DNA of 34,504 nt from a virus: IMG/VR virus record IMGVR_UViG_3300027297_000001, positions 1-34,504 of that record. The stretch is one strand, 5' to 3'. Below, one piece after another: positions 6,833 through 31,920 of this stretch. Numbering within the stretch: position 1 is the first letter of the stretch; each line of letters opens with the position of its first letter. Position numbers and translations under genes: made by a program. The notes under the pieces are model-generated. The model did not search any database. It was given only the letters and a program-made list of their open reading frames with translations, and was not told the origin of the DNA.

Positions 6833-6850
6833 GGGCGCAATCTGCGCGCA

Positions 6851-6896
6851 GTGACATTTTTTGTCAATGATCGCTATTGTTGACGTTTTTTGTCAC
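6851..6896. promoter_or_regulatory. Two TGACA-N5-TGTCA inverted-repeat operator-like sites in the divergent control region
   Basis: gTGACAtttttTGTCAa (6851-6867) and tTGACGtttttTGTCAc (6880-6896). The same half-site architecture recurs at 10668-10700. Confidence 0.55.
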
Positions 6897-6922
6897 AGTT
6901 GGTTCCTATCCCTTGCATTCCA

Positions 6923-6952
6923 TTGACAATAGCTCGCAAACGAAGCTACTCT
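6923..6952 (+). promoter_or_regulatory. Sigma70-like promoter candidate for the plus arm
   Basis: TTGACA (6923-6928), 18-nt spacer, TACTCT (6947-6952), about 40 nt upstream of ATG 6993. Confidence 0.4.
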
Positions 6953-6992
6953 CTCCCCCGTTCGCATCCTACAGACGGAGATTCGTGACTCT

Positions 6993-8279
6993 ATGGCGAC
7001 AACAACGCGAAAAGTGGTGACGACGGAATACGTCCCGCCGGACGAAGCCCGGCCATCGGCCCGATACAGCGGGGATTTTTGGGAAATTATCAACGGGATC
7101 AGCACCGACGAGTGGGCGGATCACCTGGTCCGCGTCTACTACGCCAACGATCGATGGGAAAGCGCCGGAAGCCCGCCAGGAAATAAACTCACGAGCAAAT
7201 TCGACGAGGAATATATCCGGGACACATGGGGCGGCGGGCGCTACCTTCTGATTCTCTACGGTCCGCCAGGCGGCAGCAAACGGGTAGGCCAAACTTTCCA
7301 CGTTGAAATCGTGGGCACTCCACCAAAGCAATTCATCAGTGGGGGAGGGAAGCCCGCCTCGGAAGCGGACAGCGCCGGATCACAAACCGTGGCGCTCGAG
7401 GCCATGCGCATGTACGCGAATCCCGAATTCGTGCGTATGCAGATGCAAATGATGGTGACGGCGGCAACCGAGGCGATGGCACTGATCAAGAGCCAAATGC
7501 CGGCGGCGCAAAATCCGCTCGAAACCCTGCGAGCCGCAAAGGAAATTCTCGGCAGCGGAAATCACGAAGGCGGTTTGCTGGATACGCTTCGCGTCCTGAA
7601 AGAATTGGGTCTGGTCGGTTCGCCGGAGAAAAAAGGGATCGACGAAATTTTAGGACTGATCACCACGCTAAAAACTTCCGGGCTGATCAACAGCGGGGCG
7701 CAGAAGGCTGACATCGCCGCCACGTTTGCGAACAATATCCCGTTACTTGCCGATCGTTTTGTCGCGGGGCTCGAGCAACTGCGGTTGAAATCCGAATCGG
7801 ACGAGAGAACGATCCGCCTGCAGCGCGGAGAAATTCGCCAAAACGATCTCAATGTGATTACGATGGACCAGCAAAGGCAGCCGCCCTCCACACCGGCGGC
7901 GGGCGCGCCAACGCCCGCCGCTCCCGCCCCAGCTGCCACGGTCACGCCGGAAGTCGCGCAGGCTATCATCGCGCAGGCCCACTTGCACCGGCTCGTCGCT
8001 GGGATCAAGCAACCGAATTCGACGGGGCAGGATATGTACGATTATTTGGTGAACGCCTGGCCGGAAATCCTGGACGAGCTCGCCAAGATGAGCAAGGAAA
8101 CGCTGCTCGGGTTTTTCAAATCTCGCGAGATGCAGCGCACTTATTTTCAGTGCGAAATCCTGGCCGAAGTGGGAGACGATCCGCGCCTGCCGAAAATGAT
8201 CGAGGATTTTTTGAGGATCGCCAAACAGAACGAAATCCCGCCAGCCGCGGCGGGGAGTGCGCCGCAAACCGCAATATGA
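6993..8279 (+). CDS. Hypothetical protein (428 aa), first gene of the plus arm
   Basis: ATG 6993, long ORF with a helical, Ala/Leu/Gln-rich middle and a Pro/Ala linker (PPSTPAAGAPTPAAPAPAAT). No family recognised. Confidence 0.7.
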   Translation: MATTTRKVVTTEYVPPDEARPSARYSGDFWEIINGISTDEWADHLVRVYYANDRWESAGSPPGNKLTSKFDEEYIRDTWGGGRYLLILYGPPGGSKRVGQTFHVEIVGTPPKQFISGGGKPASEADSAGSQTVALEAMRMYANPEFVRMQMQMMVTAATEAMALIKSQMPAAQNPLETLRAAKEILGSGNHEGGLLDTLRVLKELGLVGSPEKKGIDEILGLITTLKTSGLINSGAQKADIAATFANNIPLLADRFVAGLEQLRLKSESDERTIRLQRGEIRQNDLNVITMDQQRQPPSTPAAGAPTPAAPAPAATVTPEVAQAIIAQAHLHRLVAGIKQPNSTGQDMYDYLVNAWPEILDELAKMSKETLLGFFKSREMQRTYFQCEILAEVGDDPRLPKMIEDFLRIAKQNEIPPAAAGSAPQTAI

Positions 8280-8534: not shown

Positions 8535-8575
8535 GGGGAGCGAAAGTCCCCGGCAAGGGGAGCTTTCGCGGTAAG
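8535..8575 (+). promoter_or_regulatory. Nested-hairpin RNA motif B, copy 1
   Basis: ggggaGCGAAAG-TCCCC-GGCAA-GGGGA-g-CTTTCGC-GGTAA. It lies in the 5' leader of the helicase gene, 26 nt before ATG 8601. Confidence 0.6.
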
Positions 8576-8600: not shown

Positions 8601-10058
8601 ATGACAAAACCTAATTCAGAAATTGCGCAGACGCTTCCCCATAACATCGAAGCGGAGCGCGCCATCCTCGGCGGCATTATGATCCACAATCCGGCTCTCG
8701 AAAGCGTGGCCGACAAACTTACGCCGGATGCTTTCTTCCACGTCAATCACAAAAAAATCTACGACGCCATCCTCGCCTTGCACGAAGACGAATTGCCGAT
8801 GGACGAAATTCATGTGATCGAATGGCTGTCCCAGGCCCGCACGCTCGAGATCGCGGGCGGCGCGGGATATATTTCCGCGCTGCTCGATGGCCGCCCCATC
8901 ATCAACAATCTTTCCAACTATGCGGACATCGTGGCCGGCAAAGCGCGCCTGCGAAAGCTGATCCGGGAAACGGAATTCGTCCAGAAGCGCGCCCTCGAGG
9001 GATGGGCCAATGTGGACGATCTGGAAACTCAGTTTCGCAGCGCGATTGAACTGACGGAACCAGGCGGAAACGGGAACGGCAACGGCCACAAGATCAGCTA
9101 CTCCACCACGGAGTTCCTGCAAAAAGACTGGCCCGAGCCGGAATATCTCGTCCAGGGTTTGCTTGCGCGTAATTCGCCTTCGATGATCGTGGCCATGCCG
9201 CACAGCCTGAAAAGTTTTTTCACCATCGGCCTTGCCTATTCGTGCTCCGTGGCCACGGAGAAAGCCCTCGGGCGATTGATGGTGCCAAAGGCGTTTCGGA
9301 CGATGCTCGTCCAGGTGGAAGAGTCCGGTGCGGAAATGAAAAAGCGGATCCGCGATTTCCTGGCCACGAAACAATTCCTGGATGTGGATCCCGACAATGT
9401 GCGGATCGTCCCACGCGAGGAATTTCCGCGCGAGGGCTTCACGGCAAAGTGGGCAAAGAAAGTGGTGACGGAAGCGCTGGAATTTAAGGCCGATCTGATC
9501 GTGTTCGATGTCTTGCGGCGCCTCTTCGTCGGCCACGGCGATATGAACGGCCCGCAGGACTCCGCTACCTTCCTCGAAATGATCGATGCCGTGCGCGACG
9601 TCACCGGAGCGAATACGCTGCTCGTCCATCACAAAAACAAGAAAGACGCCGAGATGATGTACTCCGCGGCCGGCAGCATCAATTTCTCGGGATGGGCCAA
9701 AACCTTCATCGAATTTAAAAATAAGAAAATCCTGCCGAACAACGTTTCCACGGTGGAAATCGAAACCGATACAGCCTACGGAGTTTCCGCCGACCCGATG
9801 CGCATGGTTCTCGATTTAACTTCCATCATGCCGTTGCGCCTTGAGGCGATCGAGGACGGCGACGATCTGGCCGAGGCCCTGCAACAGATGGACACGGAGT
9901 GGAACATCCGCACGCTGATGGAAGTGTTGGGCATTCCCCGCTCGAGCGCGCAGCGCCGCATCCGGGGATGGGAAAAAACCGGCGCGATCCATAAAGTATC
10001 CGGCGGCAAAAAAGGCCGCGGCGGTTTGGCGGTCTACACAAAAGGACTTGGCGAATGA
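8601..10058 (+). CDS. Replicative helicase-like protein: DnaB N-terminal domain + RecA/RepA-like P-loop domain + C-terminal HTH (485 aa)
   Basis: The N-terminus LPHNIEAERAILGGIMIHNPALESV...HKKIYDAILAL is the characteristic DnaB N-domain signature. The central part has Walker-B-like DLIVFDVLRRLF and a Walker-A position reading AMPHSLKS. The C-terminus is IRTLMEVLGIPRSSAQRRIRGWEKTGAIHKV. Confidence 0.8.
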   Translation: MTKPNSEIAQTLPHNIEAERAILGGIMIHNPALESVADKLTPDAFFHVNHKKIYDAILALHEDELPMDEIHVIEWLSQARTLEIAGGAGYISALLDGRPIINNLSNYADIVAGKARLRKLIRETEFVQKRALEGWANVDDLETQFRSAIELTEPGGNGNGNGHKISYSTTEFLQKDWPEPEYLVQGLLARNSPSMIVAMPHSLKSFFTIGLAYSCSVATEKALGRLMVPKAFRTMLVQVEESGAEMKKRIRDFLATKQFLDVDPDNVRIVPREEFPREGFTAKWAKKVVTEALEFKADLIVFDVLRRLFVGHGDMNGPQDSATFLEMIDAVRDVTGANTLLVHHKNKKDAEMMYSAAGSINFSGWAKTFIEFKNKKILPNNVSTVEIETDTAYGVSADPMRMVLDLTSIMPLRLEAIEDGDDLAEALQQMDTEWNIRTLMEVLGIPRSSAQRRIRGWEKTGAIHKVSGGKKGRGGLAVYTKGLGE

Positions 10059-10060
10059 CT

Positions 10061-10279
10061 CTAACTTTTACTCGCGGCCAACTCTCTCTTCAACATTTCT
10101 GCACGAAGTAGCTTTTTCGCGACATCGCGCAGTTCGTTCCCAAAAACTTTCTTCAATTGATCGCCATCGCTTGATGAAAAACTAATCCTTAAAACATAGT
10201 GGGTCTGACGGTAAACTTTGTCCGTTCCAGGATGGTTTGCTCGCCATCTTTGTTGGTAGATCGTCGCTGGTTTCACCAT
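10061..10279 (-). CDS. Small AT-rich-gene protein (72 aa), possible ribbon-helix-helix-type regulator
   Basis: ATG 10277-10279 behind SD GAGGAG with 7-nt spacing. This is the only minus-strand gene inside the plus arm and faces away from the iteron field. The segment VLRISFSSSDGDQLKKVFGNELRDVAKKLLRAEMLKRE is compatible with strand-helix-helix, but the functional call is weak. Confidence 0.5.
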   Translation of the reverse strand: MVKPATIYQQRWRANHPGTDKVYRQTHYVLRISFSSSDGDQLKKVFGNELRDVAKKLLRAEMLKRELAASKS

Positions 10280-10319
10280 CAATTTTCTCCTCTGTCGAAT
10301 ATATCACACGCTTAAAATT

Positions 10320-10639
10320 AAATGCCCACGGTGGGCATTTGGTATGTAACTTTTCTACCCATCGATTTTCTGTCTATTTCATCATTGCCCTGGAGAAAGG
10401 GGGCGAAAGCGGGCATTTGAGGCTTAAACCGAATACTCTCTATAGTTTCCAAATGCCCATTTAAATGCCCACTCCCTAGGGGGATATCGAACGATTCCTA
10501 ACCTAAAGCAAATGAACACAATAGCTTCCAAATGCCCACTCACCCCCTAAAAAGTGGGCATTTAATGGGCATTTAAATGGGCATTTAGGATGTCCTGTGT
10601 TTTGTACATACTAAGCCTGTTTTCGGGCCTAAATGCCCA
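10320..10639. repeat. Iteron field: 10 copies of AAATGCCCA/TGGGCATTT in both orientations (putative origin and/or operator array)
   Basis: Forward copies start at 10320, 10451, 10463, 10530 and 10631. Reverse copies are at 10332-10340, 10411-10418 (1 mismatch), 10555-10563, 10566-10574 and 10578-10586. Spacing inside the tandem sets is 12 nt. Palindromic pairs are at 10320-10340 and 10530-10563. The region is visibly AT-rich and non-coding. Confidence 0.8.
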
Positions 10640-10667
10640 TTTTCTCTCCCTCTCCCGGACCCCCTGA

Positions 10668-10700
10668 GTGACAAAATTTGTCACTGACAAAATTTGTCAC
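10668..10700. promoter_or_regulatory. Two tandem TGACA-N5-TGTCA palindromes (operator-like)
   Basis: gTGACAaaattTGTCAc at 10668-10684 is followed immediately by TGACAaaattTGTCAc at 10685-10700. Confidence 0.6.
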
Positions 10701-10780
10701 TTTTCGAATAGGCTCTGTGGAGAGCGCAGTTTACTTCCATTTTCTTTCTTTCTTTTTATCTCTCCACTCATACAATACTC

Positions 10781-10809
10781 TTGACAAAACTCATACATGT
10801 ATGATATTC
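10781..10809 (+). promoter_or_regulatory. Sigma70-like promoter candidate for the mini-gene operon, overlapped by a 12-nt palindrome
   Basis: TTGACA (10781-10786), 16-17 nt spacer, GATATT/ATATTC. The perfect palindrome CATACATGTATG (10792-10803) sits in the spacer. Confidence 0.45.
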
Positions 10810-10828
10810 TCTCTCCAGTGAATGAGTA

Positions 10829-11035
10829 ATGGCGACCGTAAACCAAATCGAAATTCAGCAATCAATCGAAGGCCGGAAGATCGCCACGCACTGCGGATGG
10901 TGCGCGAAAAAATTACCCCGATGGAATGGCAAGCGAGGCCAGCCGCGGAAGTTTTGCAAAGGCATGAATTGCCAGGTGTACGCCTGGCGCCGGGATCATC
11001 CCCGGAAGAAAATCGACACGGGAGACTTGATATGA
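10829..11035 (+). CDS. Zinc-ribbon mini-protein (68 aa)
   Basis: MATVNQ...HCGWCAKKLPRWNGKRGQPRKFCKGMNCQVYAWRRDH has CxxC...CxxxxC followed by a basic tail. It is preferred over the overlapping 161-aa frame, whose first half is Arg/Pro-rich. Confidence 0.6.
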   Translation: MATVNQIEIQQSIEGRKIATHCGWCAKKLPRWNGKRGQPRKFCKGMNCQVYAWRRDHPRKKIDTGDLI

Positions 11036-11307
11036 AAACCCTGCGAAACGCGATTCGTGATTCGTGGCCAGCCATCCGTGAAAAATCTTGGCGGCTATTT
11101 CTGCGCGCGTTGCGTGCGGTGACGCTGACCGTCGACGATTGGATTCAGCGGCAGGAAGTGGCCCTCCGCGAAAAATCGACTGTGGCGCAGTTTCAAGCCG
11201 AAGTCGATCCGGTCCAGAGCCGCAAGCGCGAAAAGGTTTCCCGGGCCACAAAGCCGCGCCGTCCGCGCCTGGTCTATCAGCACGGCGAATTTGTGGAAGT
11301 TCGCTAG
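11032..11307 (+). CDS. Hypothetical protein (91 aa)
   Basis: ATG 11032 forms an ATGA overlap with the stop of the zinc-ribbon gene. Sequence starts MKTLRNAIRDSWPAIREKSWRLFLRALRAV. Confidence 0.55.
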   Translation: MKTLRNAIRDSWPAIREKSWRLFLRALRAVTLTVDDWIQRQEVALREKSTVAQFQAEVDPVQSRKREKVSRATKPRRPRLVYQHGEFVEVR

Positions 11308-11321
11308 AGTAAATCTAAAAA

Positions 11322-11355
11322 GGGGAGCGCACATAGAGTGCGCGGTGAATAAAAA
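11322..11355 (+). promoter_or_regulatory. Hairpin motif A, copy 1 (SD-like tract + GCGCAC-AUAGA-GUGCGC + A-rich spacer + AUG)
   Basis: GGGGA-GCGCAC(11327-11332)-ATAGA-GTGCGC(11338-11343)-GGTGAATAAAAA-ATG(11356). Confidence 0.6.
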
Positions 11356-11637
11356 ATGAAAGCGACGATGGAGAGCACGAACAAGCTGGTGATCATCAAC
11401 GGGATAAACTTTCGCGTCTGGCAAGGCGTGTCCGAACAGGGAACGAAATTCGTGGCGCTCGTGAACCGTCTGGCCGCGGGGACTCCCGACGATCAGACGA
11501 AAATCGTTGCGGAGCTCGCGAAGCAACAGGATCACGCCCCGATCGATCCCGCGCTGGCACCTGCGCTCAAAACGCTCGATCCGTCGATCGATCCGGGAAT
11601 CGTAGAGCCGCCGGCAAAAGAAACGCCTGCCGCGTAG
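11356..11637 (+). CDS. Hypothetical protein (93 aa)
   Basis: ATG 11356 after hairpin A. Normal composition with a Pro/Asp-rich C-terminus. Confidence 0.6.
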   Translation: MKATMESTNKLVIINGINFRVWQGVSEQGTKFVALVNRLAAGTPDDQTKIVAELAKQQDHAPIDPALAPALKTLDPSIDPGIVEPPAKETPAA

Positions 11638-11680
11638 GGAGAGAGCGAAAGTCCCCGATGAGGGGAGTGTCCGCGGTGAA
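11637..11680 (+). promoter_or_regulatory. Nested-hairpin RNA motif B, copy 2 (outer stem degenerate)
   Basis: gggagagaGCGAAAG-TCCCC-GATGA-GGGGA-gtgtCCGC-GGTGA. It ends 2 nt before ATG 11682. Confidence 0.5.
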
Positions 11681-11681
11681 C

Positions 11682-11894
11682 ATGACGGATGAAGGCCGGC
11701 AAATTCTATATCGCATGAAAGTGCGCTGCTCTGAACAATGGGGGATCGCGCTGGCGGATATGGAACTGGAAAACATTTCGGCCAGTACACCCCTCGGGGC
11801 GATTGCCTGGCACGACGCGATTTTGATTTGCCATCTACTTCGGAGAGGGTTTCAGGCCCCGGAGAAATATCGAAAGCGAGGGTTTCCTAAATGA
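11682..11894 (+). CDS. Hypothetical protein (70 aa)
   Basis: MTDEGRQILYRMKVRCSEQWGIALADMELENI... The start at 11682 is chosen because the ATG at 11658 lies in the loop of motif B. Confidence 0.5.
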   Translation: MTDEGRQILYRMKVRCSEQWGIALADMELENISASTPLGAIAWHDAILICHLLRRGFQAPEKYRKRGFPK

Positions 11895-12322
11895 TGAACA
11901 TTCGAAAACTGCAATGGACGCTTCCTCCGTTCCTTTATTTCTTCTGCCTGATCGTCATGATCACGGCGGGATTGAAAGTTTATCGGCTGGATCGGCAAAT
12001 CGACGCGATCCGGGCGACTTACGATAAGCAGCTGGGCGATCTGCAAACCACGATCAACGAACAAACGAAAGAAATTTCGAACTGCCGCAAAACGGTGATC
12101 GGGGACGGAACTGCGACGATCTTGATGGACGTGAACCATCCCTACGGCAAATTCGTTTCCCCGGCCGCCCAGCTGCCGGCGGGATACATTCCCGGGCCGG
12201 TGTGGATCGTGCCCCGCCGGATCGTGCCGCGCACGATGGACGGCACGCTGAACGGCGCGTACGCGTACCTGCATTCAGACGGAACGATGGAGCCGTGGCG
12301 CACGGCGGGAGAATCGAAGTGA
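11891..12322 (+). CDS. N-terminally anchored membrane protein (143 aa)
   Basis: ATGA overlap at 11891-11894. TM segment LPPFLYFFCLIVMITAGL is followed by a coiled segment. Confidence 0.65.
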   Translation: MMNIRKLQWTLPPFLYFFCLIVMITAGLKVYRLDRQIDAIRATYDKQLGDLQTTINEQTKEISNCRKTVIGDGTATILMDVNHPYGKFVSPAAQLPAGYIPGPVWIVPRRIVPRTMDGTLNGAYAYLHSDGTMEPWRTAGESK

Positions 12323-12963: not shown

Positions 12964-13109
12964 ACAAAGACCAAGAGGAATTCAACAAGACGCGGGAAAA
13001 GCTGTTCAAGCTGGCGGACAAGATGGGCCTGCGGTTGACGTTGACGGTGAAAAACAAATTCCAGGCCGCGCCGCAGCCGCATGCGAAACGGGAGCCGGGA
13101 GAAAACTGA
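12960..13109 (+). CDS. Possible 49-aa basic mini-protein
   Basis: ATGA overlap at 12960-12963. Sequence is MNKDQEEFNKTREKLFKLADKMGLRLTLTVKNKFQAAPQPHAKREPGEN. Confidence 0.45.
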   Translation: MNKDQEEFNKTREKLFKLADKMGLRLTLTVKNKFQAAPQPHAKREPGEN

Positions 13110-13873
13110 TGCCGATCATCGAAGAACGCTGGAAAGAAATTCAAAATCTGTCGTTGAAATTCGGCGGTCATAAACCGGATTCTCAATTTTGCGTGATGGA
13201 AGCCGCCGCCTACATCGCAGGTGAATCGTGGTCCGATCACCCTGTATGCGTGCCTCGGACCATCGCCGCGGTGTTGCGGCGATGGAATGACGCGCTTCCC
13301 TCGGATCGAGATCGTGATCGTCTATTGAAGCCGTTTCTTCCGCGCATTATTGGCTTACACGCTGACGCGAAAACGGAAATGCGCCGTGCGGTGATGTGCG
13401 GCGATTTCGCGCTTCGTTTCGTGATACCGGAATATTTGCGTTACGCCAAGAAAAAGGGACTTGCGGAAGAACTGGCCGCGACTTCGGAATCGACTACGCA
13501 AGCTGAACTTAAAATTGCAGCAAAATCAGTTCGAAATAAATTGCGCGCCATCGCCAGCGCCATCGACATCGCCAGCGCCAGCGACATCGCCATCGACATC
13601 GCCAGCGCCAGCGCCATCGCCATCGACATCGACATCGCCAGCGCCAGCGACATCGCCATCGCCATCGCCATCGCCAGCGCCATCGACATCGCCAGCGCCA
13701 GCGACATCGCCATCGCCAGCGCCATCGCCAGCGCCATCGCCAGCGCCATCGACATCGCCATCGCCAGCGCCAGCGCCATCGCCATCGCCAGCGCCAGCGC
13801 CATCGCCATTAATCAGAAACTAGAAGTAGCGAAATTGGCGCTCGTAGAGCGCATGATTTCGTGTGCGGAGTGA
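13109..13873 (+). CDS. Protein with a Cys-containing N-terminal domain and an 88-aa (Ala/Asp)-(Ile/Ser) dipeptide-repeat region (254 aa)
   Basis: TGATG overlap at 13107-13111. The N-terminal domain reads FCVMEAAAYIAGESWSDHPVCVPRTIAAVLRRWNDALPSDRDRDRLLKPFLPRIIG. The repeat is AIASAIDIASASDIAIDI... The frame continues into a unique C-terminus NQKLEVAKLALVERMISCAE. Confidence 0.7.
   Translation: MPIIEERWKEIQNLSLKFGGHKPDSQFCVMEAAAYIAGESWSDHPVCVPRTIAAVLRRWNDALPSDRDRDRLLKPFLPRIIGLHADAKTEMRRAVMCGDFALRFVIPEYLRYAKKKGLAEELAATSESTTQAELKIAAKSVRNKLRAIASAIDIASASDIAIDIASASAIAIDIDIASASDIAIAIAIASAIDIASASDIAIASAIASAIASAIDIAIASASAIAIASASAIAINQKLEVAKLALVERMISCAE
13547..13810 (+). repeat. 44 tandem hexanucleotide units built from only three unit types (GCCATC, GCCAGC, GACATC)
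   Basis: Read directly: 264 nt of strict 6-nt periodicity. All six frames are open across it, which explains track ORFs 13441..13809 (-) and 13461..13823 (+). Confidence 0.9.
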
Positions 13874-16100
13874 ATTTGTGATTTTACTCGGATGGGAAAT
13901 CGGAACGGGAAAGCGCGTGGAAATCCCGGACACCGGGCATCTGGCGTGGTTTGGCCAGACGCAGCTATCCGGGAAAACTACGGCGCTCGAGGCCATCGCC
14001 TATCGTGGGGAACTGACGGCCGTCGCGTTCATCACGAAACAGGGCGAGGGGGGATTCCTCACCGGGCGGATGATCCCCCCTTATTTCTCCGAACCGACGA
14101 ACGACGAAGAGCAACCGCTCTGGCGATGGGTGAAATCCATCCTCGAGGCTTCGCAACAGCGCAAAATGAATTTCGAGGAATCCTGGATCATCCGCGCCTG
14201 CGAGGATCCGCGCCTCGCGCAAACCCTGGCCGACGTGCATTCCAACATCAAGGCTTTGCTGGGCGGCGAGGGCGGCTACATCGAAAAAGGCCGCGGCAAG
14301 AAAAAGAAGCGCGAATGGAAATATTCCCGCAAACCAGTGTCCGGGATGAATGCCGGCATTTACACCAGCTTGAAAGCGTACTTCGATATCGTGATGCCCC
14401 AGCTGGCCCGCCTGCCTTACACCAAGAGACTGAAACTTTTCCCCGGCCTGAACGTGATGGACCTGCGCGAATACGCCACGGAGACGCAGGCGCTCGTGAT
14501 CCGTTCGGTGATGGAGTGGGTGTATCAGCACGAAAAGAACGTGCGCGTGATCGTCCCCGAATCGCAGGACTTCGTGCCGCAGGGAAAAAACTCCCCGGTA
14601 AAGATGGCCTGCGAGAACCTGGTGCGCAAGGCCGGGGCCAATAAAAATTTCATGTGGCTGGATTCGCAGGATATGGCCGCGGTGGACAAGATCATGCTGC
14701 GAGCCTGCTCGATCGTGGGCTGCGGCGTGCAAACCGAGGGGCACGAAATTGACCGCACGCTCGCGAGCATGTTTTCGCCCCAGCTAAAACCGATTGACAT
14801 TGCCCGGCTGCGCATCGGCGAATTCTTCGTGCGCACGCCGGAAGCGCGCGTTTCGAAAGTGTACGTGCAACCGGCCTGGATGGATAGCGAGCTCCACGCG
14901 CAGGCCATCGCCCGCGGCGAGGAAACCGTCGCCAGCGCGCGGCAGATGTTGCGTGCGTTTAAAGATTCAAGGAAACCCGGTCCGTCGTCCCCCCAACTGT
15001 TGCAAATTCAGGAGGAATCCGATGCCGAATGTGAGCGAAGTGCAGACGTTGAATCAGGGGCCGAAATATCAAAGTCAAGCGCGGAGGTTTCAAAGGATGA
15101 TCGAACTTCCAAGCGTCTACACCACGTCGACTCAGACGATGATTCTGGAACTGAAATTCGCCCCGAAGTTGACGATGGAAATCGAATTCACGAAGGGCGA
15201 AGCGTTCGAACTTCTGCGAGCGATCGCGGATGTGCCCCGAACGATGGAAATAATGAGGAAAACGACGGTTTACCACGGAAACAAGAAGCCCAAAAAACAA
15301 AAAATCTAAACGAGGAGACGATTCATGAAAAGCCTGGCAGGCAGGAAAGTCAAACCGCATGTGATGTTCAATCCGGTGCCGTTCGCGGATCAAGTGCTGG
15401 CGCGGAAGGATTGGACGATCGCGAAAAAGAGGGAAGTGATTCTATTCCAGGTGTTCGGGATCTCTCCCCGGAAAGTGAGGACGCAATGCCGGAAACCGCA
15501 GCCCAAAAAGTAGAGCGGCAACTGGACGATAACGTAATTCCCACGTTGGGCACGCTGCGCGAGCTTTTGAAAGATCACGCGGCGCTGATTGAAGCCCACG
15601 ACGCGCTGGCCGCGCGCGCGAGCGAACGGATGGTCACGGCATTGACCGAAGGTTACGAGGGAAACCTATCCCGATCAGCCGAAGCCATGACAAAACATCG
15701 GGAAAGCCAGTCCGCGCCGTCCGGCAACGGCCTTTCGCTCACCGTCCCGCAGTTGGACTACATCTACAAATACACCGTGGCGAAGGCGGCGAAGGCTCCC
15801 GGCATTCTGGAATTGCTCACCACGAAACCGGAACTGCGCGTGACCGTGCAACGGCAAACGGTGGAAATGGACGATTCCACGATCGTCGGACGGATCGCGC
15901 GGCTTCTCCACGAAGGATATTTCAAGAGTCCCAAAAACGTGCCCGCGCTGCAAAAGGAATTAAAGCGCCGCGGCTGCGATCAGCCCACCACGAACATTTA
16001 TAAGCCGATCAACAAACTGGCCGAGATGGGTTTTCTGACCGTGGAGGCCGAAGGCTACCAGGAAGTCCCGGAAATGAAAGTGTCCATTGTGAAAGCGTGA
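13863..16100 (+). CDS. HerA/FtsK-like P-loop NTPase + long acidic low-complexity linker + C-terminal winged helix (745 aa); candidate genome-packaging/translocating ATPase
   Basis: Walker A is HLAWFGQTQLSGKTTALEAI. Walker-B-like is NVRVIVPESQDFVP. FMWLDSQDMAAVDKIMLRACSIVGCGVQTEGHEIDRTL resembles the HerA/FtsK sensor region. The linker is acidic and Ser-rich, roughly residues 380-570. The C-terminus is GRIARLLHEGYFKSPKNVPALQKELKRRG...INKLAEMGFLTVEAEGY. The start is GTG (13863 or 13878). Confidence 0.65.
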   Translation: MRSEFVILLGWEIGTGKRVEIPDTGHLAWFGQTQLSGKTTALEAIAYRGELTAVAFITKQGEGGFLTGRMIPPYFSEPTNDEEQPLWRWVKSILEASQQRKMNFEESWIIRACEDPRLAQTLADVHSNIKALLGGEGGYIEKGRGKKKKREWKYSRKPVSGMNAGIYTSLKAYFDIVMPQLARLPYTKRLKLFPGLNVMDLREYATETQALVIRSVMEWVYQHEKNVRVIVPESQDFVPQGKNSPVKMACENLVRKAGANKNFMWLDSQDMAAVDKIMLRACSIVGCGVQTEGHEIDRTLASMFSPQLKPIDIARLRIGEFFVRTPEARVSKVYVQPAWMDSELHAQAIARGEETVASARQMLRAFKDSRKPGPSSPQLLQIQEESDAECERSADVESGAEISKSSAEVSKDDRTSKRLHHVDSDDDSGTEIRPEVDDGNRIHEGRSVRTSASDRGCAPNDGNNEENDGLPRKQEAQKTKNLNEETIHEKPGRQESQTACDVQSGAVRGSSAGAEGLDDREKEGSDSIPGVRDLSPESEDAMPETAAQKVERQLDDNVIPTLGTLRELLKDHAALIEAHDALAARASERMVTALTEGYEGNLSRSAEAMTKHRESQSAPSGNGLSLTVPQLDYIYKYTVAKAAKAPGILELLTTKPELRVTVQRQTVEMDDSTIVGRIARLLHEGYFKSPKNVPALQKELKRRGCDQPTTNIYKPINKLAEMGFLTVEAEGYQEVPEMKVSIVKA

Positions 16101-16472: not shown

Positions 16473-16813
16473 GCAAGAAAACCCGCAGCGGAGCGAAGGG
16501 CGGACGGAAAGTAGGGAAGAGAAGCAGGGCCAAACTGGCTTCTCATTCTGAGCTGGGGCCGTCCGTCCCTCCCTCCGCTGCGCATTCGCAAGACGGGTAT
16601 ACCGTTGACGCGGCCGAAGCGATTATTACGGCACTCACGCTCGAGCGCCAAAAGCTGCTTTATGCCTTGCGCGGGACGCTTCATTTCTATGATCGTGTGG
16701 CTGGCAACGTAAAAACCGATCATGGCTGGATGGCGAAAGATGTTCTCTACTTGAAAGAAATCCGCATGTTGGCATGGGGTCGCGAAGAGGGAGAAAGCAA
16801 AAGTCCCCGGTAA
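16469..16813 (+). CDS. Hypothetical basic-N-terminus protein (114 aa)
   Basis: ATGA overlap at 16469-16472. Sequence starts MSKKTRSGAKGGRKVGKRSRAKL. Its TAA stop (16811-16813) is the loop of motif B copy 3. Confidence 0.55.
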   Translation: MSKKTRSGAKGGRKVGKRSRAKLASHSELGPSVPPSAAHSQDGYTVDAAEAIITALTLERQKLLYALRGTLHFYDRVAGNVKTDHGWMAKDVLYLKEIRMLAWGREEGESKSPR

Positions 16814-16826
16814 GGGGAGCTTTTGC
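16788..16826 (+). promoter_or_regulatory. Nested-hairpin RNA motif B, copy 3
   Basis: agggagaaaGCAAAAG(16797-16803)-TCCCC-GGTAA-GGGGA-g-CTTTTGC(16820-16826). The outer-stem change G:C->A:T is compensatory. Confidence 0.6.
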
Positions 16827-16827
16827 G

Positions 16828-17205
16828 ATGAAAATGCTCCTGGAATGCATTTTGATCAGCGCGTCCCTTTGCCGCGCCATCCATTCGCGGCCGATCGTGG
16901 CCCTCGGGGCGGGCCAGGCCGTCGCGCTTCTGGCCGATGGCGATCTGACGCGCCGAAATATCAAACAGGGCGGGATGGAAGTGGATCCGCTGGCGCGCGT
17001 TTTCATCGGCGCGCATCCCACCTGGCCGCGCATGGTTCCGATGGGCATTGTCCAGACGGCCGCGGGGATGTGGCTTGCGCAAAAAATGAAATCCAGCCGG
17101 CATGCGTGGCTGCGGCGCTGGTGGTGGCTGCCCCAAACCGCGGGGATCGCCGGAAACGCGCAGGGATTTATTTACAGCTACGTCCACTGGAAGCGAGGTT
17201 TCTAA
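16828..17205 (+). CDS. Small integral membrane protein (125 aa)
   Basis: MKMLLECILISASLCRAI... has further hydrophobic segments and a Trp-rich tail. The alternative in-frame ATG at 16834 fits the 'motif B + 2 nt + ATG' spacing seen at two other copies. Confidence 0.6.
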   Translation: MKMLLECILISASLCRAIHSRPIVALGAGQAVALLADGDLTRRNIKQGGMEVDPLARVFIGAHPTWPRMVPMGIVQTAAGMWLAQKMKSSRHAWLRRWWWLPQTAGIAGNAQGFIYSYVHWKRGF

Positions 17206-23175: not shown

Positions 23176-23655
23176 TCAGCTTCCGAAAGTAGGAACGTTT
23201 AAAGAATCCCACACGGCCTGCACGCCATCGACTTTGCATATTTGCTGGGCAGCCTCCGATGGTTCGGTGGGCACTTCCACGAGCTCGAGGTGCGGCAGAT
23301 CGTGCCAGGATTTGCCGTCGCGCAGGCCGTATTGCGGCGCGAGGGCCACGATACGCTGCCAGGCCGGATGCGACGCGTCCCAATCCGGCTGGCTCGTGTC
23401 TACATTCTCAACCCACACGTCCACGGCGCAGCCGATCACATGGTTCGATTGGAATCCGCGCGCGTCCGTGACGATTTTCCCCGGCATCGTGCGCCCCACG
23501 GCGAATAGGTTGTCCTGTTGCTGCGCGGTGCGCAGGCCGGCGTCAATCTGGATGGCGATGTCTTCCGCCGCCAGCGCGTCCGCCAGATTCTTCACGCGGC
23601 GCTGCAATTCGGGATGGGTTTCTTCGAGGCGGGCTAGTGAGATGTTGGATAGCAT
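23176..23655 (-). CDS. Peptidase M15 (VanY / L-alanyl-D-glutamate peptidase-like) cell-wall hydrolase (159 aa)
   Basis: The zinc-ligand pattern of the family is present: H...SNHVIGCAVDV ... GKSWHDLPHLEL. The N-terminus is LARLEETHPELQRRV. Confidence 0.8.
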   Translation of the reverse strand: MLSNISLARLEETHPELQRRVKNLADALAAEDIAIQIDAGLRTAQQQDNLFAVGRTMPGKIVTDARGFQSNHVIGCAVDVWVENVDTSQPDWDASHPAWQRIVALAPQYGLRDGKSWHDLPHLELVEVPTEPSEAAQQICKVDGVQAVWDSLNVPTFGS

Positions 23656-23855
23656 GCAATCTCCCTCGTAGGTTCGTCAAGGAACGCGCGCAGCCCGAAG
23701 CGGTGATAAAAACGATCTTTGACCGGACATCCCGCGCCAGGCCCGCGGTCCCATATGCGAAACGCGCCATTTCTTATCACGTCCCGCGTCTGGCGCAAAG
23801 CGAGAAATTCACAGTTGGGATTTGTAGCGCTGGCGGCGAGTTCGTACAGAGTCAT
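23634..23855 (-). CDS. Hypothetical protein (73 aa)
   Basis: ATGA overlap with the transglycosylase stop (23852-23855). Sequence starts MTLYELAASATNPNCEFLALRQTRDVIRNGAFRIW. It overlaps the M15 start by 22 nt. Confidence 0.45.
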   Translation of the reverse strand: MTLYELAASATNPNCEFLALRQTRDVIRNGAFRIWDRGPGAGCPVKDRFYHRFGLRAFLDEPTREIACYPTSH

Positions 23856-24361
23856 TCGAGAAAACTCCAAAGAGCAAGCCCGGCGATGGCGGCGCCCACA
23901 ACCCACAAAACAGTTTCGGCGCTCCATCCGGTCGGCACGGGAACGCTCGCTTGCCCCGCGGGTGTGGAAGTGAGTCCCGGAACCGATGGCACGGCGGCCG
24001 CGGCTGGCGCGAGGTAAGCCTGATAGGCGCCGGAATTGTACGTCGACCAGGGAGAAAACCCGCCCGCGATGGAGTAGATTTCGTACGCATCGTTCGCGTT
24101 GGTTTGGGGATCGTAGAGATTGTCGTTCGCGTATTCGGGATGATCTTTCAAATAAATCTGCCAGAGCCCGTACGATCCCTCGCCGGGGGGAGTCCCGCCA
24201 GACGCGGCCGTTTCGGGATTGTAGATGTTCGGGTTGCCCTGGCTTTCGGCGAGCGCGATGGCCACGGCGGTTTGCAAATCCTGCCCGTCGAAGCCGGCCG
24301 TCTGCGCGTAGTACAGGATTTGCGCCGGCGTCAAGATCGTTGCGGTGGGAACGTTGGTCAT
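23852..24361 (-). CDS. Lytic transglycosylase (SLT/lysozyme-like) with C-terminal TM anchor (169 aa)
   Basis: AVAIALAESQGNPN...GSYGLWQI...Y matches the SLT catalytic Glu-Ser and GLxQI motifs. The C-terminus is WSAETVLWVVGAAIAGLALWSFLE. Confidence 0.75.
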   Translation of the reverse strand: MTNVPTATILTPAQILYYAQTAGFDGQDLQTAVAIALAESQGNPNIYNPETAASGGTPPGEGSYGLWQIYLKDHPEYANDNLYDPQTNANDAYEIYSIAGGFSPWSTYNSGAYQAYLAPAAAAVPSVPGLTSTPAGQASVPVPTGWSAETVLWVVGAAIAGLALWSFLE

Positions 24362-30654: not shown

Positions 30655-30700
30655 TTACCGCGAAAGCGCCTCTTACCGAGGCTTTCCGCTCAAAATCTCC
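30655..30700 (-). promoter_or_regulatory. Nested-hairpin RNA motif B, copy 5 (inner stem fully covaried)
   Basis: In gene sense: gggagattttgaGCGgAAAG-CCTC-GGTAA-GAGG-cg-CTTTCGC-GGTAA. It starts right after the stop at 30701-30703 and lies 44 nt before ATG 30610. Confidence 0.6.
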
Positions 30701-31876
30701 CTACTGATAGTTCACCGTGAAATCGATCGAGGCGCTGCTCGCCTTCACGCAAATTCCATTCAGAAAAAGATTGTCGTAAATCTCGGGCGGCGGTGTCGTT
30801 GTGGCGATCGAGGTGATCACCGAAACCACGTTCGTCGCCGGCGTGCCTGTGCAGCTTCCCGGCGCGAGATCGAATAGCGTGATCGTGCCCGCGGCTGGCG
30901 TGCCGATCACCACGGAGTGCACGGTTCCCGGGCCGGGTTTGATTTCCGTCGCCGTCGTGCTCGCCAAATGCGAATAGCTGTTCGGCATCTGGAAGCCTGG
31001 CGGCAGGAAAATATAGTCCATCGTGAAGACGTTTGCATTCGCCCCACCAGCGGTGTAAACGATCAGCACGTTCACGCATGGAAGAGGCGGGACATCGAAA
31101 AATTGAGCGCCCGCGCTCGTGGACGGCGTGAAGGTAAGATTGGTGGGATTGACATTCGTCGACGGAGAGCACTCCACAACGATCGTCGAACCGGACGGCC
31201 CCGAACCGCCCACATAGGCAAACGAAATATAGCCGTACGCGCTTCCCAAAGGGGTTTGCGAAACCCCGGAAACCACGCTCACGCCAGCCGGCGCGTTCGC
31301 TGCAATCACTTTATCCAGTTGCGCGACTTGATAGGCGCCCACGGTTTGCACTGGCTCGGCCTGCGAACCTGAATAACTGAGTAAAAAAGTTCCGGTGTTG
31401 GGAACGCAGGTGATCTGAACTTCCACAGTGGGGAAATATCCCGATGCCGTGACTGCCGCATTCGATCCTACGCCAGCCTGGCCTTGCGTTGCGGTATCCG
31501 AAATCAGGTACGTTGTCCCGCTGCTATCCACGCCATAAATTGCCATCGCCATCGAAGCCACGCCAGCCGTCTTCGCGTAGGCGTGATGCTGCGTTTGGTT
31601 GCGATTGTTTACGGGAAAGGTTTGCGTCGATCCCGTGCAAGCTGTCCCTGCGGGCGCTAATGTTTGCTGGACTGGAACGATGCTTACCGGCGTCTGCGCC
31701 ATCGCGGGACGCGCGGCAAATCCCGCAAGAGCGAACAGAAGGACGAGCGAGCCGCCCAGCTTCGCGAGCCGTTTCTTTAGCGAGGGAATGAAGGCGCGCG
31801 GCGTCTTCCGGTTGCGCAGGGCCTTTTTGATTCCCTGAATTTGCTTGTCTTTCGGGATGTTCATTCTTCGCTTCAT
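30701..31876 (-). CDS. Signal-peptide-bearing beta-rich protein (391 aa)
   Basis: A basic N-terminus is followed by LGGSLVLLFALAGFAARPAMAQ (AxA-type cleavage context). The remainder is Thr/Ser/Gly/Val-rich and beta-like. Confidence 0.65.
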   Translation of the reverse strand: MKRRMNIPKDKQIQGIKKALRNRKTPRAFIPSLKKRLAKLGGSLVLLFALAGFAARPAMAQTPVSIVPVQQTLAPAGTACTGSTQTFPVNNRNQTQHHAYAKTAGVASMAMAIYGVDSSGTTYLISDTATQGQAGVGSNAAVTASGYFPTVEVQITCVPNTGTFLLSYSGSQAEPVQTVGAYQVAQLDKVIAANAPAGVSVVSGVSQTPLGSAYGYISFAYVGGSGPSGSTIVVECSPSTNVNPTNLTFTPSTSAGAQFFDVPPLPCVNVLIVYTAGGANANVFTMDYIFLPPGFQMPNSYSHLASTTATEIKPGPGTVHSVVIGTPAAGTITLFDLAPGSCTGTPATNVVSVITSIATTTPPPEIYDNLFLNGICVKASSASIDFTVNYQ

Positions 31877-31878
31877 TT

Positions 31879-31920
31879 TTACCGCGAAAGCTTCCCTTAC
31901 CGGGGACTTCCGCTCTCTCC
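31879..31920 (-). promoter_or_regulatory. Nested-hairpin RNA motif B, copy 4
   Basis: In gene sense: ggagagaGCGGAAG-TCCCC-GGTAA-GGGAA-g-CTTTCGC-GGTAA, then AA, then ATG (31876). Confidence 0.6.

What the first reader, a model, noticed from the sequence alone, without database searches (positions are those of the whole stretch)
10320..10639. Dense iteron field: ten AAATGCCCA 9-mers in both orientations with 12-nt phasing
Within about 320 nt of AT-rich non-coding DNA the 9-mer occurs 5 times forward and 5 times reverse. Two head-to-head palindromic pairs are present (10320-10340; 10530-10563). Tandem sets are spaced exactly 12 nt (10451/10463; 10554/10566/10578). The 12-mer AAATGCCCATTT is itself nearly palindromic (AAATG..CATTT). 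This is classic origin or plasmid-like iteron architecture, or a multi-operator switch, and it sits between the helicase gene and the early mini-gene promoter.
Basis: seen in the sequence. Interest (0 to 1): 0.65.

Follow-up and report, generated by a model that had tools for sequence, protein, structure and literature searches.

The report
Iteron origin paired with its helicase
The repeat cluster is real and is most likely the replication origin of an uncultured 34-kb soil virus, read by a DNA-binding tail on the DnaB-like helicase encoded just upstream; repeats and tail change together across more than 60 related genomes.

Summary
There are nine exact AAATGCCCA copies, not ten, plus one 8/9 copy. 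All lie in 10320-10639 and nowhere else in the window (0.43 expected). The tandem set starts at 10555, so its spacing is 11 and 12 nt.

The field lies downstream of a helicase gene (8601-10058). The predicted fold matches DnaB, with an added C-terminal winged helix. In 47 of 62 non-redundant relatives a comparable repeat field follows the helicase gene. The layout is the same, but the repeat sequence differs by clade and tracks the winged helix.

Two nearly identical genomes (L049, L060) differ only in a cassette holding the helicase, an inserted methylase gene and the repeat field. All seven repeats differ between them.

Best reading: an iteron-type origin bound by the helicase's own winged helix, probably a self-loading initiator-helicase. 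This is functionally like SaPI Rep-ori or phage P4 alpha, but built on a DnaB (SF4) fold.

Binding and origin activity are inferred, not shown. GC skew supports it in the window but not consistently in relatives. Read depth was uninformative.

I call it a new variant of a known kind, of moderate interest.

The parts
8601..10058 (+). Helicase gene (485 aa): DnaB N-terminal domain, RecA-fold AAA_25 ATPase and C-terminal winged helix. Proposed initiator-helicase.
   Evidence: Pfam DnaB 1.6e-26, AAA_25 2.8e-21 and a weak HTH_23 hit. PHROG DnaB-like helicase. AlphaFold model pLDDT 83; best PDB matches are bacterial DnaB over about 440-480 alignment columns, E 2e-19.
9864..10043 (+). Part of the helicase gene encoding the winged helix (residues 422-481). 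H3 RSSAQRRIRGWEKT is the predicted recognition helix. GGKKGRGGLA is the wing.
   Evidence: AlphaFold model of residues 395-485 gives H-b-H-H-b-wing-b. Foldseek top hits are winged-helix proteins: CadC/ArsR, MarR-type, Fur, TubR. Its residues co-vary with the repeat sequence.
10061..10279 (-). 72-codon ORF inserted between the helicase stop and the field. It is accessory cargo, not part of the core origin.
   Evidence: Absent from sibling L076 and from a variant in run X3 that skips 10046-10405. Homologues sit at the same spot in L011, L015 and L082. No Pfam, PHROG or NCBIfam hit.
10320..10328 (+). Iteron S1. Forms a palindromic pair with S2.
   Evidence: Exact copy. Conserved in L076, L002 and L065 while the 3-nt spacer varies.
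10332..10340 (-). Iteron S2.
10389..10409 (+). Purine-rich flank of S3 (GGAGAAAGGGGGCGAAAGC). Together with S3 it is an inverted copy of S10 plus its CT-rich flank. In relatives a (CG)4-5TAGAG box precedes this flank; the box is degenerate in the window.
   Evidence: Inverted repeat I3, 24 nt, 79%. The iteron-plus-flank module is seen in all clades inspected.
10410..10418 (-). Iteron S3 (AAATGCCCG, 8/9). Corresponds to the family's site B.
   Evidence: Exact in L076, L002 and L065.
10425..10450 (+). Conserved spacer unit that precedes a forward iteron. A second copy lies at 10504-10529.
   Evidence: Direct repeat of 35 nt, 77% identity. The second copy (10504-10529) is well conserved in L002 and L065; the first is identical in the sibling L076 but diverges in L002 and L065.
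10451..10459 (+). Iteron S4.
10463..10471 (+). Iteron S5, 12 nt after S4. S4 plus S5 is a perfect 21-nt inverted repeat of S8 plus S9.
   Evidence: I1.
10504..10529 (+). Second copy of the conserved spacer unit.
10530..10538 (+). Iteron S6. Head-to-head with S7 across a 16-nt spacer.
10555..10563 (-). Iteron S7.
10566..10574 (-). Iteron S8, 11 nt after S7.
10578..10586 (-). Iteron S9, 12 nt after S8.
10587..10625 (+). Conserved non-iteron block (TAGGATGTCCTGTGTTTTGTACATACTAAGCC...). Role unknown.
   Evidence: Nearly identical in L076, L002 and L065, although other spacers diverge.
10631..10639 (+). Iteron S10. Corresponds to the family's outer site H.
10640..10657 (+). CT-rich flank of S10 (TTTTCTCTCCCTCTCCCG). 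The flank is independent of iteron clade.
   Evidence: (I3).
10668..10701 (.). Two tandem copies of the palindrome (G)TGACAAAATTTGTCAC. Relatives carry a different inverted repeat at this position. Whether it belongs to the origin is uncertain; it may be a regulator site.
   Evidence: (D7, I5). It lies outside the cassette exchanged between L049 and L060.
10716..10731 (+). TGTGGAGAGCGCAGTT box, conserved across all iteron clades.
10739..10809 (.). Least stable duplex of the intergenic region: the (TTTC)n tract at 10740-10758, then the promoter. Candidate unwinding element.
   Evidence: Nearest-neighbour stability scan gives -44 kcal/mol per 40-mer, against a window mean of -59.6 (sd 4.5). The (TTTC)n tract is conserved across the family.
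10781..10810 (+). Sigma-70-type promoter (TTGACA-16/18-GATATT/TATTCT) for the rightward early genes.
   Evidence: A TTGACA with a matching -10 is present at the equivalent place in relatives.
10829..11035 (+). First early gene (68 aa, Cys-rich). Context only.
   Evidence: No family hit.

Best explanation
The ten sites are the iterons of the element's replication origin. Their cognate initiator is the helicase encoded directly upstream.

Proposed mechanism:
1. The helicase has a DnaB-type fold: a DnaB N-terminal domain plus a RecA-fold ATPase. It also has a C-terminal winged helix that DnaB lacks.
2. Each winged helix binds one asymmetric ~10-bp site, (T)AAATGCCCA(C). The recognition helix (RSSAQRR...) reads the G/C-rich 3' half. 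The Gly/Lys/Arg wing (GGKKGRGG) reads the A/T-rich 5' half.
3. Sites packed 11-12 bp apart lie on one face of the DNA. Oppositely oriented sets (S4-S5 against S8-S9; outer modules S3 and S10) gather several protomers and nucleate ring assembly.
4. Nearby low-stability DNA melts. The best candidate is 10739-10809; the AT-rich spacers are alternatives.
5. The helicase loads itself, and its DnaB-type N-terminal domain recruits the host primase.

Shown here: the clustering, the conservation of layout, the co-variation, the cassette exchange, and the predicted folds.
Inferred: DNA binding, origin activity, self-loading, the position of melting, and primase recruitment.
For: (1) Nine exact and one 8/9 copy lie in 320 nt and none elsewhere.
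(2) 47 of 62 non-redundant relatives have at least 5 copies of one 10-mer (up to 1 mismatch) within 350 nt, among the 1,400 nt downstream of the helicase stop. The control, the helicase coding sequences, gives 1 of 50. Three apparent exceptions that were inspected have the field 1.3-2 kb further on.
(3) The layout is the same across clades: site+, ~72 nt, site-, ~40 nt, site+, ~17 nt, then 3-4 tandem site-, ~50 nt, site+.
(4) Against L002 and L065 (helicase 82-83% identical) the sites are 97-99% identical and the DNA between them 69-70%.
(5) The repeat sequence differs by clade and tracks the winged helix. The exact wing GGKKGRGG occurs in 16 distinct winged-helix sequences, all with AAATG(C/T)CCAC, and in none of 24 with other repeats. 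P/S/T/A before helix 3 goes with ...CCAC 3' halves in five lineages. H/N/V goes with ...GGTGCG. L019 has the window-type helix 3 with a longer wing, and its repeat AATAAGGCCCAC has the same 3' half with a longer 5' half.
(6) L049 and L060 are 95-98% identical over the two flanking blocks (6.7 kb in all), but diverge over L049 4747-7461. That stretch holds the helicase (79.6% aa identity), a methylase insert and the field. All 7 repeats differ (AAATGCCC(A/G)C against AATAGGTGCG) at conserved positions. The right junction falls just after the last repeat.
(7) The winged-helix and DnaB folds are predicted with fair confidence.
(8) The global cumulative GC-skew minimum is at 10816, inside the same intergenic region. 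The least stable DNA adjoins the field.
(9) The design has precedent: SaPI Rep helicases bind 6-12 iterons immediately downstream of rep through a C-terminal winged helix (PMC9371898). Phage P4 alpha also uses a C-terminal winged helix (PMC4889955).
Against: - There is no binding, replication or marker-frequency data.
- The co-variation rests on few independent lineages. One case does not fit the wing-length rule: L034 has a short linker but a long 5' half.
- Some winged helices that look identical go with different repeats. For example, HKSNAQ occurs with AAATAGGTGCG, AATTGGTGCG and AATCGACGCG, so other residues must contribute.
- In 16 relatives' 11-kb loci the local skew minimum is near the field in only 4.
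- The ATPase has a deviant Walker A (A-x-P-H-x-x-K-S), invariant in the family. Its activity is unproven.
- Only 9.6 kb of L049 is visible, so a second difference elsewhere in that genome cannot be excluded.
- The 745-aa ATPase (13863-16100) also ends in a winged-helix-like segment that varies among relatives.
Confidence: 0.7

Rival explanations
1. It is the origin, but the repeats are bound by a separate initiator encoded elsewhere. Candidates are the 428-aa protein upstream of the helicase, or the 745-aa ATPase with a winged-helix-like tail. The helicase would then be recruited rather than self-loaded.
For: Most bacterial and phage DnaB-type helicases need an initiator and a loader (PMC3401641). 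The 428-aa gene is always co-oriented just upstream of the helicase gene. The ATPase tail varies among relatives.
Against: Between L049 and L060 the upstream protein is 97% identical although the repeats differ completely. The ATPase gene lies outside the exchanged cassette's position, and the flanks beyond the field are 95-100% identical. The helicase's own winged helix tracks the repeat in two separate parts.
Confidence: 0.12
2. It is mainly a transcriptional control region. The helicase tail, or another regulator, occupies the sites to control the early promoter, the leftward small ORF, or an internal promoter-like site at 10417-10446. This could coexist with origin function.
For: The field sits between divergently oriented genes. 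S1/S2 lie about 40 nt upstream of the start codon of the minus-strand ORF. There is a weak promoter-like match at 10417-10446. Iteron initiators often autoregulate (PMC4980987).
Against: The sites are asymmetric and in mixed orientation. The last site ends about 140 nt before the -35 of the only strong promoter. The helicase gene itself is upstream and is not controlled from here. The field persists in relatives that lack the minus-strand ORF. The promoter-like match is not above chance: 3 found against 1.4 expected.
Confidence: 0.13
3. It is a partition centromere (parC/parS-like) or a packaging recognition site (pac/cos) made of repeated protein-binding sites.
For: Arrays of ~10 short repeats at one-turn spacing also occur in plasmid centromeres such as R1 parC, and in terminase recognition sites such as lambda cosB (from general knowledge, not tested here).
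Against: No ParA/ParM, ParB/ParR or terminase family was detected in any ORF tested. The repeats travel and co-vary with the helicase, not with another gene.
Confidence: 0.05

Closest known systems
SaPI Rep-ori modules (Staphylococcus aureus pathogenicity islands)
   Same: The helicase doubles as initiator. A C-terminal winged helix recognises short iterons. There are 6-12 iterons immediately downstream of the rep ORF, in opposite orientations around AT-rich DNA. Specificity is cognate and element-specific (PMC9371898).
   Different: SaPI Reps are AAA+ (SF3 or MCM-like) helicases and move 3'-5'. This protein has a DnaB N-terminal domain and a RecA-fold ATPase (SF4-like). SaPI iterons are 5-6 nt and these are ~10-12 nt. 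No primase gene was recognised next to this helicase.
Phage P4 alpha protein with ori and crr
   Same: A single replication protein whose C-terminal winged helix binds repeated sites at the origin (PMC4889955).
   Different: P4 alpha is a DnaG-type primase fused to an SF3/D5-like helicase, and it needs a second repeat cluster (crr). Here there is no primase domain, the fold is SF4, and there is only one cluster in the genome.
SV40 large T antigen and papillomavirus E1
   Same: A helicase fused to an origin-binding domain. It assembles head-to-head on oppositely oriented short repeats and loads itself (PMC3401641).
   Different: These are SF3 helicases of eukaryotic viruses. Their origin-binding domain is N-terminal and derives from an endonuclease fold, not a winged helix.
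Iteron plasmids and lambdoid phages (RK2 TrfA, pPS10 RepA, lambda O with ori-lambda)
   Same: Clustered iterons bound by winged-helix initiators, with a flanking AT-rich unwinding element. Initiator and origin are exchanged as one specificity module (PMC4980987, PMC7466680).
   Different: In those systems the initiator has no helicase activity and recruits host DnaB through DnaA, DnaC or lambda P. Here the winged helix is part of the helicase itself.
Bacterial DnaB and RSF1010 RepA-type SF4 helicases
   Same: DnaB N-terminal domain (Pfam, NCBIfam, PDB sequence hits). The whole-chain fold is best matched by DnaB. The ATPase is of the AAA_25/RepA type.
   Different: This protein has an extra C-terminal winged helix. 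It is far below the NCBIfam DnaB cut-offs (99.9 against 525 bits). It has no PF03796 match, and its Walker A is deviant. A 2016 survey of viral replicative helicases lists origin-binding or winged-helix fusions for SF3 and SF6, not for SF4, in the text I read (PMC4889955).

Membership tests
Iteron-type replication origin | Several copies of one short sequence clustered in non-coding DNA, far above chance | tested here: met
   9 exact and 1 near copy in 320 nt, against 0.43 expected in the whole window.
Iteron-type replication origin | Located next to or within the gene of the cognate replication protein | tested here: met
   Downstream of the helicase gene in the window and in 47 of 62 relatives. 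It starts 0-40 nt after the stop codon in many of them.
Iteron-type replication origin | Repeats are bound specifically by the initiator | not testable with these tools
   Only indirect evidence: two-part co-variation with the winged helix and joint exchange of helicase and field.
Iteron-type replication origin | Adjacent easily melted (AT-rich) unwinding element | tested here: inconclusive
   The least stable DNA of the region is 10739-10809, about 100 nt right of the last repeat. It overlaps a promoter, and no melting data exist.
Iteron-type replication origin | Supports autonomous replication; replication starts there | not testable with these tools
   The GC-skew minimum at 10816 is consistent. 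Relatives' partial loci agree in only 4 of 16. Only assembled contigs were available, so depth is flat.
Self-loading initiator-helicase with downstream iterons (SaPI Rep type) | Helicase carries a C-terminal winged-helix DNA-binding domain | tested here: met
   Model of residues 395-485, and winged-helix matches in the PDB. Precomputed Pfam MarR_2/HTH_20 hits in some homologues.
Self-loading initiator-helicase with downstream iterons (SaPI Rep type) | AAA+ (SF3 or MCM-like) ATPase core | tested here: not met
   The core is RecA-fold AAA_25 and the best structural matches are DnaB. It works like this family but is not a member.
Self-loading initiator-helicase with downstream iterons (SaPI Rep type) | Iterons in opposite orientations on both sides of a central AT-rich stretch | tested here: met
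   S4-S5 against S8-S9 form a perfect 21-nt inverted repeat around 94 nt. The outer modules S3 and S10 are also inverted.
Self-loading initiator-helicase with downstream iterons (SaPI Rep type) | Loads without a separate loader or initiator | not testable with these tools
   No DnaA, DnaC or lambda-P-like gene was detected, but most ORFs have no recognisable family.
DnaB-family replicative helicase | DnaB N-terminal domain | tested here: met
   PF00772 at 1.6e-26. PDB DnaB N-terminal domains at 1e-17.
DnaB-family replicative helicase | DnaB_C ATPase with canonical Walker A, scoring above family cut-offs | tested here: not met
   No PF03796 match. NCBIfam scores are at most 100 bits against cut-offs of 385-898. 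The Walker A is A-x-P-H-x-x-K-S. The overall fold still matches DnaB.
Repressor operator array (phage genetic switch) | Dyad-symmetric operators overlapping the promoters they control, with a linked repressor gene | tested here: not met
   The sites are asymmetric. The strong promoter is about 140 nt away. No repressor family was found.
Partition centromere (parC/parS) | Adjacent ParA/ParM and ParB/ParR genes | tested here: not met
   No such family in any ORF scanned.

The most novel reading that the evidence does not exclude
A DnaB-fold (SF4) helicase acts as its own origin-recognition protein. A C-terminal winged helix reads ~10-bp iterons placed right after its gene, so one protein serves as initiator, loader and helicase. 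So far this design is described for AAA+ helicases (SaPI Rep, P4 alpha, T antigen, E1). In this uncultured soil-virus family the winged helix and the iterons have diversified into a dozen or more specificity types. These are exchanged as a cassette. The recognition looks readable: helix 3 pairs with the 3' half-site and the wing with the 5' half-site.
Probability: 0.5. Interest if true: 0.65.

Novelty: new variant of a known kind. Interest (0 to 1): 0.55.

Why it matters
If confirmed, this would be a self-loading initiator-helicase built on the bacterial DnaB fold rather than an AAA+ fold. Origin recognition fused to the replicative helicase would then have arisen independently in the RecA-type helicase lineage.

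The family also offers a natural series of matched protein-DNA specificities: at least 12 repeat types, one near-isogenic swap, and one case that separates the two half-sites. That series could be used to work out a recognition code for this winged helix. It could also help define replicon compatibility types in a virus group known only from soil metagenomes.

On the practical side, the result fixes the likely origin for anyone who wants to build a replicon or a host-finding tool from these genomes.

Tried and rejected
- **Nucleotide search of the phage collection:** no match for 9000-12000.
- **Protein search of phages and plasmids:** only remote helicases at up to ~32% identity (at most 26% among the phage hits), none reaching past residue 432 of the 485, so the winged helix (422-481) is essentially uncovered.
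- **185,579 reference genomes:** no relative found, so no host or prophage context.
- **Rfam:** nothing meaningful in 9900-11100, so an RNA-gene explanation is dropped.
- **Read coverage:** all runs holding the sequence are kept only as assembled contigs. Depth is flat per contig and says nothing about peak-to-trough.
- **GC skew in relatives:** the local minimum is near the field in 4 of 16 partial loci. This is treated as uninformative, not as support.
- **Downstream first gene as binder:** it is not the same gene in different clades. The RHH-like version in L033 and L051 keeps the same strand residues although the repeats differ.
- **72-aa minus-strand ORF as binder:** absent from the sibling and from most relatives that keep the field.
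- **Methylase in the L049/L060 cassette as binder:** absent from relatives whose field starts right after the helicase stop.
- **Wing length as a strict rule:** L034 is an exception.
- **Z-DNA idea:** Z-alpha domains appear among the fold matches, and relatives have a (CG)4-5 box. But the matches are generic winged-helix hits and the window lacks the box, so this was not pursued.
- **Technical failures:** A regular expression for the dispersed hairpin found nothing in relatives.

Full report
**1. What is in the sequence**

AAATGCCCA occurs nine times exactly in the window, on both strands. All copies lie between 10320 and 10639. Dinucleotide-preserving shuffles give 0.43 copies for the whole window, and none of 100 reaches nine. 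A tenth copy at 10410-10418(-) has one mismatch (AAATGCCCG). Other one-mismatch copies in the window are at chance level.

The orientations are 10320+, 10332-, 10410-, 10451+, 10463+, 10530+, 10555-, 10566-, 10578-, 10631+. The pair 10451/10463 is spaced 12 nt. The two head-to-head pairs are as described.

The field is 44% G+C, against 58% for the window. The window ends repeat each other over 99 nt, so the genome is a circle of 34,405 nt. A 34,223-nt wrap-around contig in a soil run agrees.

**2. Surroundings**

- 8601-10058(+) encodes a 485-aa protein. It has a DnaB N-terminal domain, an AAA_25 RecA-fold ATPase and a weak C-terminal HTH hit.
- Only the N-terminal 150 residues match DnaB by sequence in the PDB and NCBIfam. 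The full-length AlphaFold model (pLDDT 83) is nevertheless best matched by bacterial DnaB over about 440-480 alignment columns, with E down to 2e-19.
- A separate model of residues 395-485 gives a canonical winged helix. It has helix 2 IRTLMEVL, helix 3 RSSAQRRIRGWEKT and a wing GGKKGRGGLA. The nearest solved structures are winged-helix DNA binders.
- Right of the field lie two tandem palindromes (10668-10701), a TGTGGAGAGCGCAGTT box, a (TTTC)n tract and a strong TTGACA promoter at 10781. Small early genes follow.
- The rest of the genome has two DNA methylases, a VanY-type and an SLT-type cell-wall hydrolase and a transglutaminase-like protein. Otherwise it has no recognisable families: no integrase, partition, repressor, capsid or terminase hits.
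- The closest public record is an IMG/VR contig. It is not identical to the window but 96-97% identical.

**3. The sibling comparison**

The sibling lacks window 10046-10311. So the 72-codon minus-strand ORF at 10061-10279 is an insertion, and in the sibling the field starts about 35 nt after the helicase stop. The sibling has all ten copies exact. From 10425 to 10830 the two sequences are almost identical, although coding regions differ by 3-4%. A variant that skips 10046-10405 exists in another soil run.

**4. The family**

The helicase has more than 60 homologues at 35-83% identity. They are all metagenomic, mostly from soil, and many are on contigs of 31-40 kb. None is in 185,579 reference genomes.

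In 47 of 62 non-redundant loci, one 10-mer family (up to one mismatch) has at least five copies within 350 nt, among the 1,400 nt after the helicase stop. Helicase coding sequences used as a control reach that in 1 of 50. Three apparent exceptions that I inspected have the field 1.3-2 kb further on, behind larger inserts.

The layout is shared:
- a forward site;
- about 72 nt containing a (CG)4-5TAGAG box;
- a reverse site;
- about 40 nt of conserved spacer;
- a forward site facing a reverse site;
- two to three more reverse sites at 10-17 nt spacing;
- about 50 nt, then a forward site followed by a CT-rich flank;
- an inverted repeat of variable sequence;
- the GGAGAG box and (TTTC)n;
- the TTGACA promoter.

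The window's subclade has a partial duplication (spacer plus forward site) and a palindromic first pair. It has lost the CG box.

Against relatives with 82-83% helicase identity, the sites are 97-99% identical and the DNA between them is 69-70% identical.

**5. Co-variation**

The repeat sequence is not the same in all clades. Types seen include:
- AAATGCCCAC (the window's clade)
- AAATGTCCAC
- AATAAGGCCCAC
- AATAAGGTCCAC
- TAAGGTCCGC
- AGTAAGGTGCG
- AATACGGTGCG
- AAATAGGTGCG
- AATTGGTGCG
- AAATAGGTTCA
- AAATAGGACACA
- AATCGACGCG

The helicase winged helix tracks these types:
- The exact wing GGKKGRGG occurs in 16 distinct winged-helix sequences, all with AAATG(C/T)CCAC. It occurs in none of 24 with other repeats.
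- The residue before helix 3 is P, S, T or A wherever the 3' half ends in CCAC (five lineages). It is H, N or V where the 3' half is GGTGCG.
- L019 combines the window-type helix 3 (PRSSAQRR) with a wing one residue longer. Its repeat keeps GCCCAC but has a longer 5' half (AATAAG-).
- One case, L034, does not fit the wing-length rule.
- Some identical helix-3 starts go with different repeats. The code is therefore incomplete.

**6. A natural swap**

L049 and L060 are 95-98% identical over the two flanking blocks (6.7 kb in all), and upstream proteins are identical. They diverge over L049 4747-7461. That stretch contains the helicase (79.6% amino-acid identity), an inserted methylase gene and the repeat field.

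All seven repeats differ (AAATGCCC(A/G)C against AATAGGTGCG) at conserved positions. The right junction lies just after the last repeat. The palindrome, GGAGAG box, (TTTC)n, promoter and early genes stay the same.

L049's helicase belongs by backbone to the GGTGCG clade. It has nonetheless acquired the P-R start of helix 3, a Gln at the fifth helix position and the short wing. The protein encoded upstream is 97% identical between the two. The methylase is absent from relatives that still have a field. So, within what is visible, the helicase is the only plausible specificity determinant.

**7. Interpretation**

The field is best read as an iteron origin whose initiator is the helicase itself. 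Several winged helices would dock on tightly packed, same-face sites and on oppositely oriented sets. Rings would assemble, neighbouring low-stability DNA would melt, and the DnaB-type N-terminal domain would recruit host primase. The least stable DNA is 10739-10809, at -44 against a window mean of -59.6 kcal/mol per 40-mer.

The global cumulative GC-skew minimum is at 10816 and the maximum at 33032. The minimum is not at the main transcription divergence point near 6900. That supports the origin reading in this genome. In 16 relatives' partial loci, however, the local minimum is near the field only four times, so I give skew little weight.

Binding, origin firing, self-loading and the place of melting are all inferences.

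**8. Rivals**

- **A separate initiator is possible.** The upstream protein does not change in the swap, and the 745-aa ATPase with a winged-helix-like tail lies outside the cassette.
- **A purely regulatory array fits poorly.** The sites are asymmetric, they are about 140 nt from the strong promoter, and the field persists without the leftward ORF. A secondary regulatory role cannot be excluded.
- **Partition or packaging sites lack partner genes.** They also would not explain the linkage to the helicase.

**9. Comparison with known systems**

Functionally the closest are SaPI Rep-ori modules: a C-terminal winged helix, with 6-12 iterons immediately downstream of rep in both orientations around AT-rich DNA (PMC9371898). 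Phage P4 alpha (PMC4889955) is also close, as are T antigen and E1 (PMC3401641). All of these are AAA+ helicases.

This protein is RecA-fold and DnaB-like, so it fails that defining feature and is not a member. It also fails the sequence cut-offs for DnaB proper, and it has an unusual P-loop.

A 2016 survey of viral replicative helicases describes origin-binding or winged-helix fusions for SF3 and SF6 but not for SF4 in the text I read (PMC4889955). My literature searches found no described DnaB-type helicase with a cognate iteron field. These searches cover open-access papers only.

**10. Verdict**

The origin reading is well supported by comparison and untested by experiment. It is a new variant of a known kind: an initiator-helicase plus iterons, built on a different helicase fold, in an uncharacterised virus family. 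I score interest at 0.55.

Noticed in passing
window 10061-10279 (-); L011 1659-1964, L015 1500-1751, L082 6411-6641: A small basic protein is encoded on the minus strand between the helicase stop and the repeats. It is absent from the sibling and from a variant in run X3. Homologues sit at the same spot in three relatives. The pattern VLRISF, then a helix, then a helix looks ribbon-helix-helix by eye. No family hit; fold not tested.
   Followed up: partly
between helicase stop and first repeat in L004/L078, L020, L045, L049/L060, L025, L027: This junction is an insertion hotspot of 0 to about 2,000 nt. It carries different cargo: DNA methylases (L045, L049/L060), a 284-aa protein with a CxxxCxxC motif (L020), and a 152-aa protein of unknown function (L004/L078).
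   Followed up: partly
window 8538-8574(+), 11643-11677(+), 16790-16836(+), 30655-30691(-), 31874-31920(-): A dispersed ~37-47-nt hairpin element (GAGCGAAAGTCCCCGGCAAGGGGAGCTTTCGCGGTAA) has five copies. Each is in sense orientation just upstream of, or at, a candidate start codon. Four of the five are preceded by GGAGAG or GGGAGA; the copy upstream of the helicase gene has GGGGAG. This may be a split ribosome-binding site or an RNA operator. One copy precedes the helicase gene. The element is not conserved by sequence beyond the sibling, though some relatives have other strong hairpins there.
   Followed up: partly
window 10668-10701: Two tandem copies of the palindrome (G)TGACAAAATTTGTCAC lie between the repeats and the early promoter. 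Relatives have a different inverted repeat at the same position (often GTGAC/GTCAC-like). It lies outside the helicase-iteron cassette, so a different protein probably reads it.
   Followed up: partly
relatives, between the first and second repeat (e.g. L004, L012, L017, L021, L033, L076); window 10383-10405: A (CG)4-5TAGAG box is conserved across clades with different repeats, but it is degenerate in the window. Its function is unknown.
   Followed up: no
window 10716-10758 and equivalents in all clades: A GGAGAG(C/A)GCAGTT box followed at a fixed distance by a (TTTC)n tract is conserved whatever the repeat type. Its distance to the promoter varies, so it is not a promoter UP element. It is a candidate loading or unwinding zone.
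   Followed up: partly
helicase residues 198-205 (window about 9192-9215): The Walker A position reads A-x-P-H-x-x-K-S, and this is invariant in 31 homologues. The canonical motif is GxxxxGK(S/T).
   Followed up: no
window 13504-13851, inside ORF 13109-13873: There are about 18 overlapping 12- and 18-nt tandem repeats encoding an Ala/Ser/Ile/Asp-rich low-complexity stretch. Assemblies break here, and word depth spikes in runs X2 and X3.
   Followed up: no
window 13863-16100 (+): A 745-aa P-loop protein (GQTQLSGKT) has no family or PDB match, and its C-terminal segment looks winged-helix-like. It is syntenic in relatives at 615-664 aa. It may be a packaging or replication ATPase.
   Followed up: partly
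window 6847-7384 versus sibling L076 3206-3784: A second segment is replaced between the window and its 96-97% identical sibling. It covers the divergent promoter region and the 5' end of the 428-aa gene upstream of the helicase.
   Followed up: no
whole window: Most ORFs have no Pfam, PHROG or NCBIfam match. No capsid, portal or terminase was recognised, although cell-wall hydrolases are present (23176-23655, 23852-24361). Relatives keep a genome size of 31-40 kb, and none is in 185,579 reference genomes. This looks like an uncharacterised soil virus lineage.
   Followed up: partly
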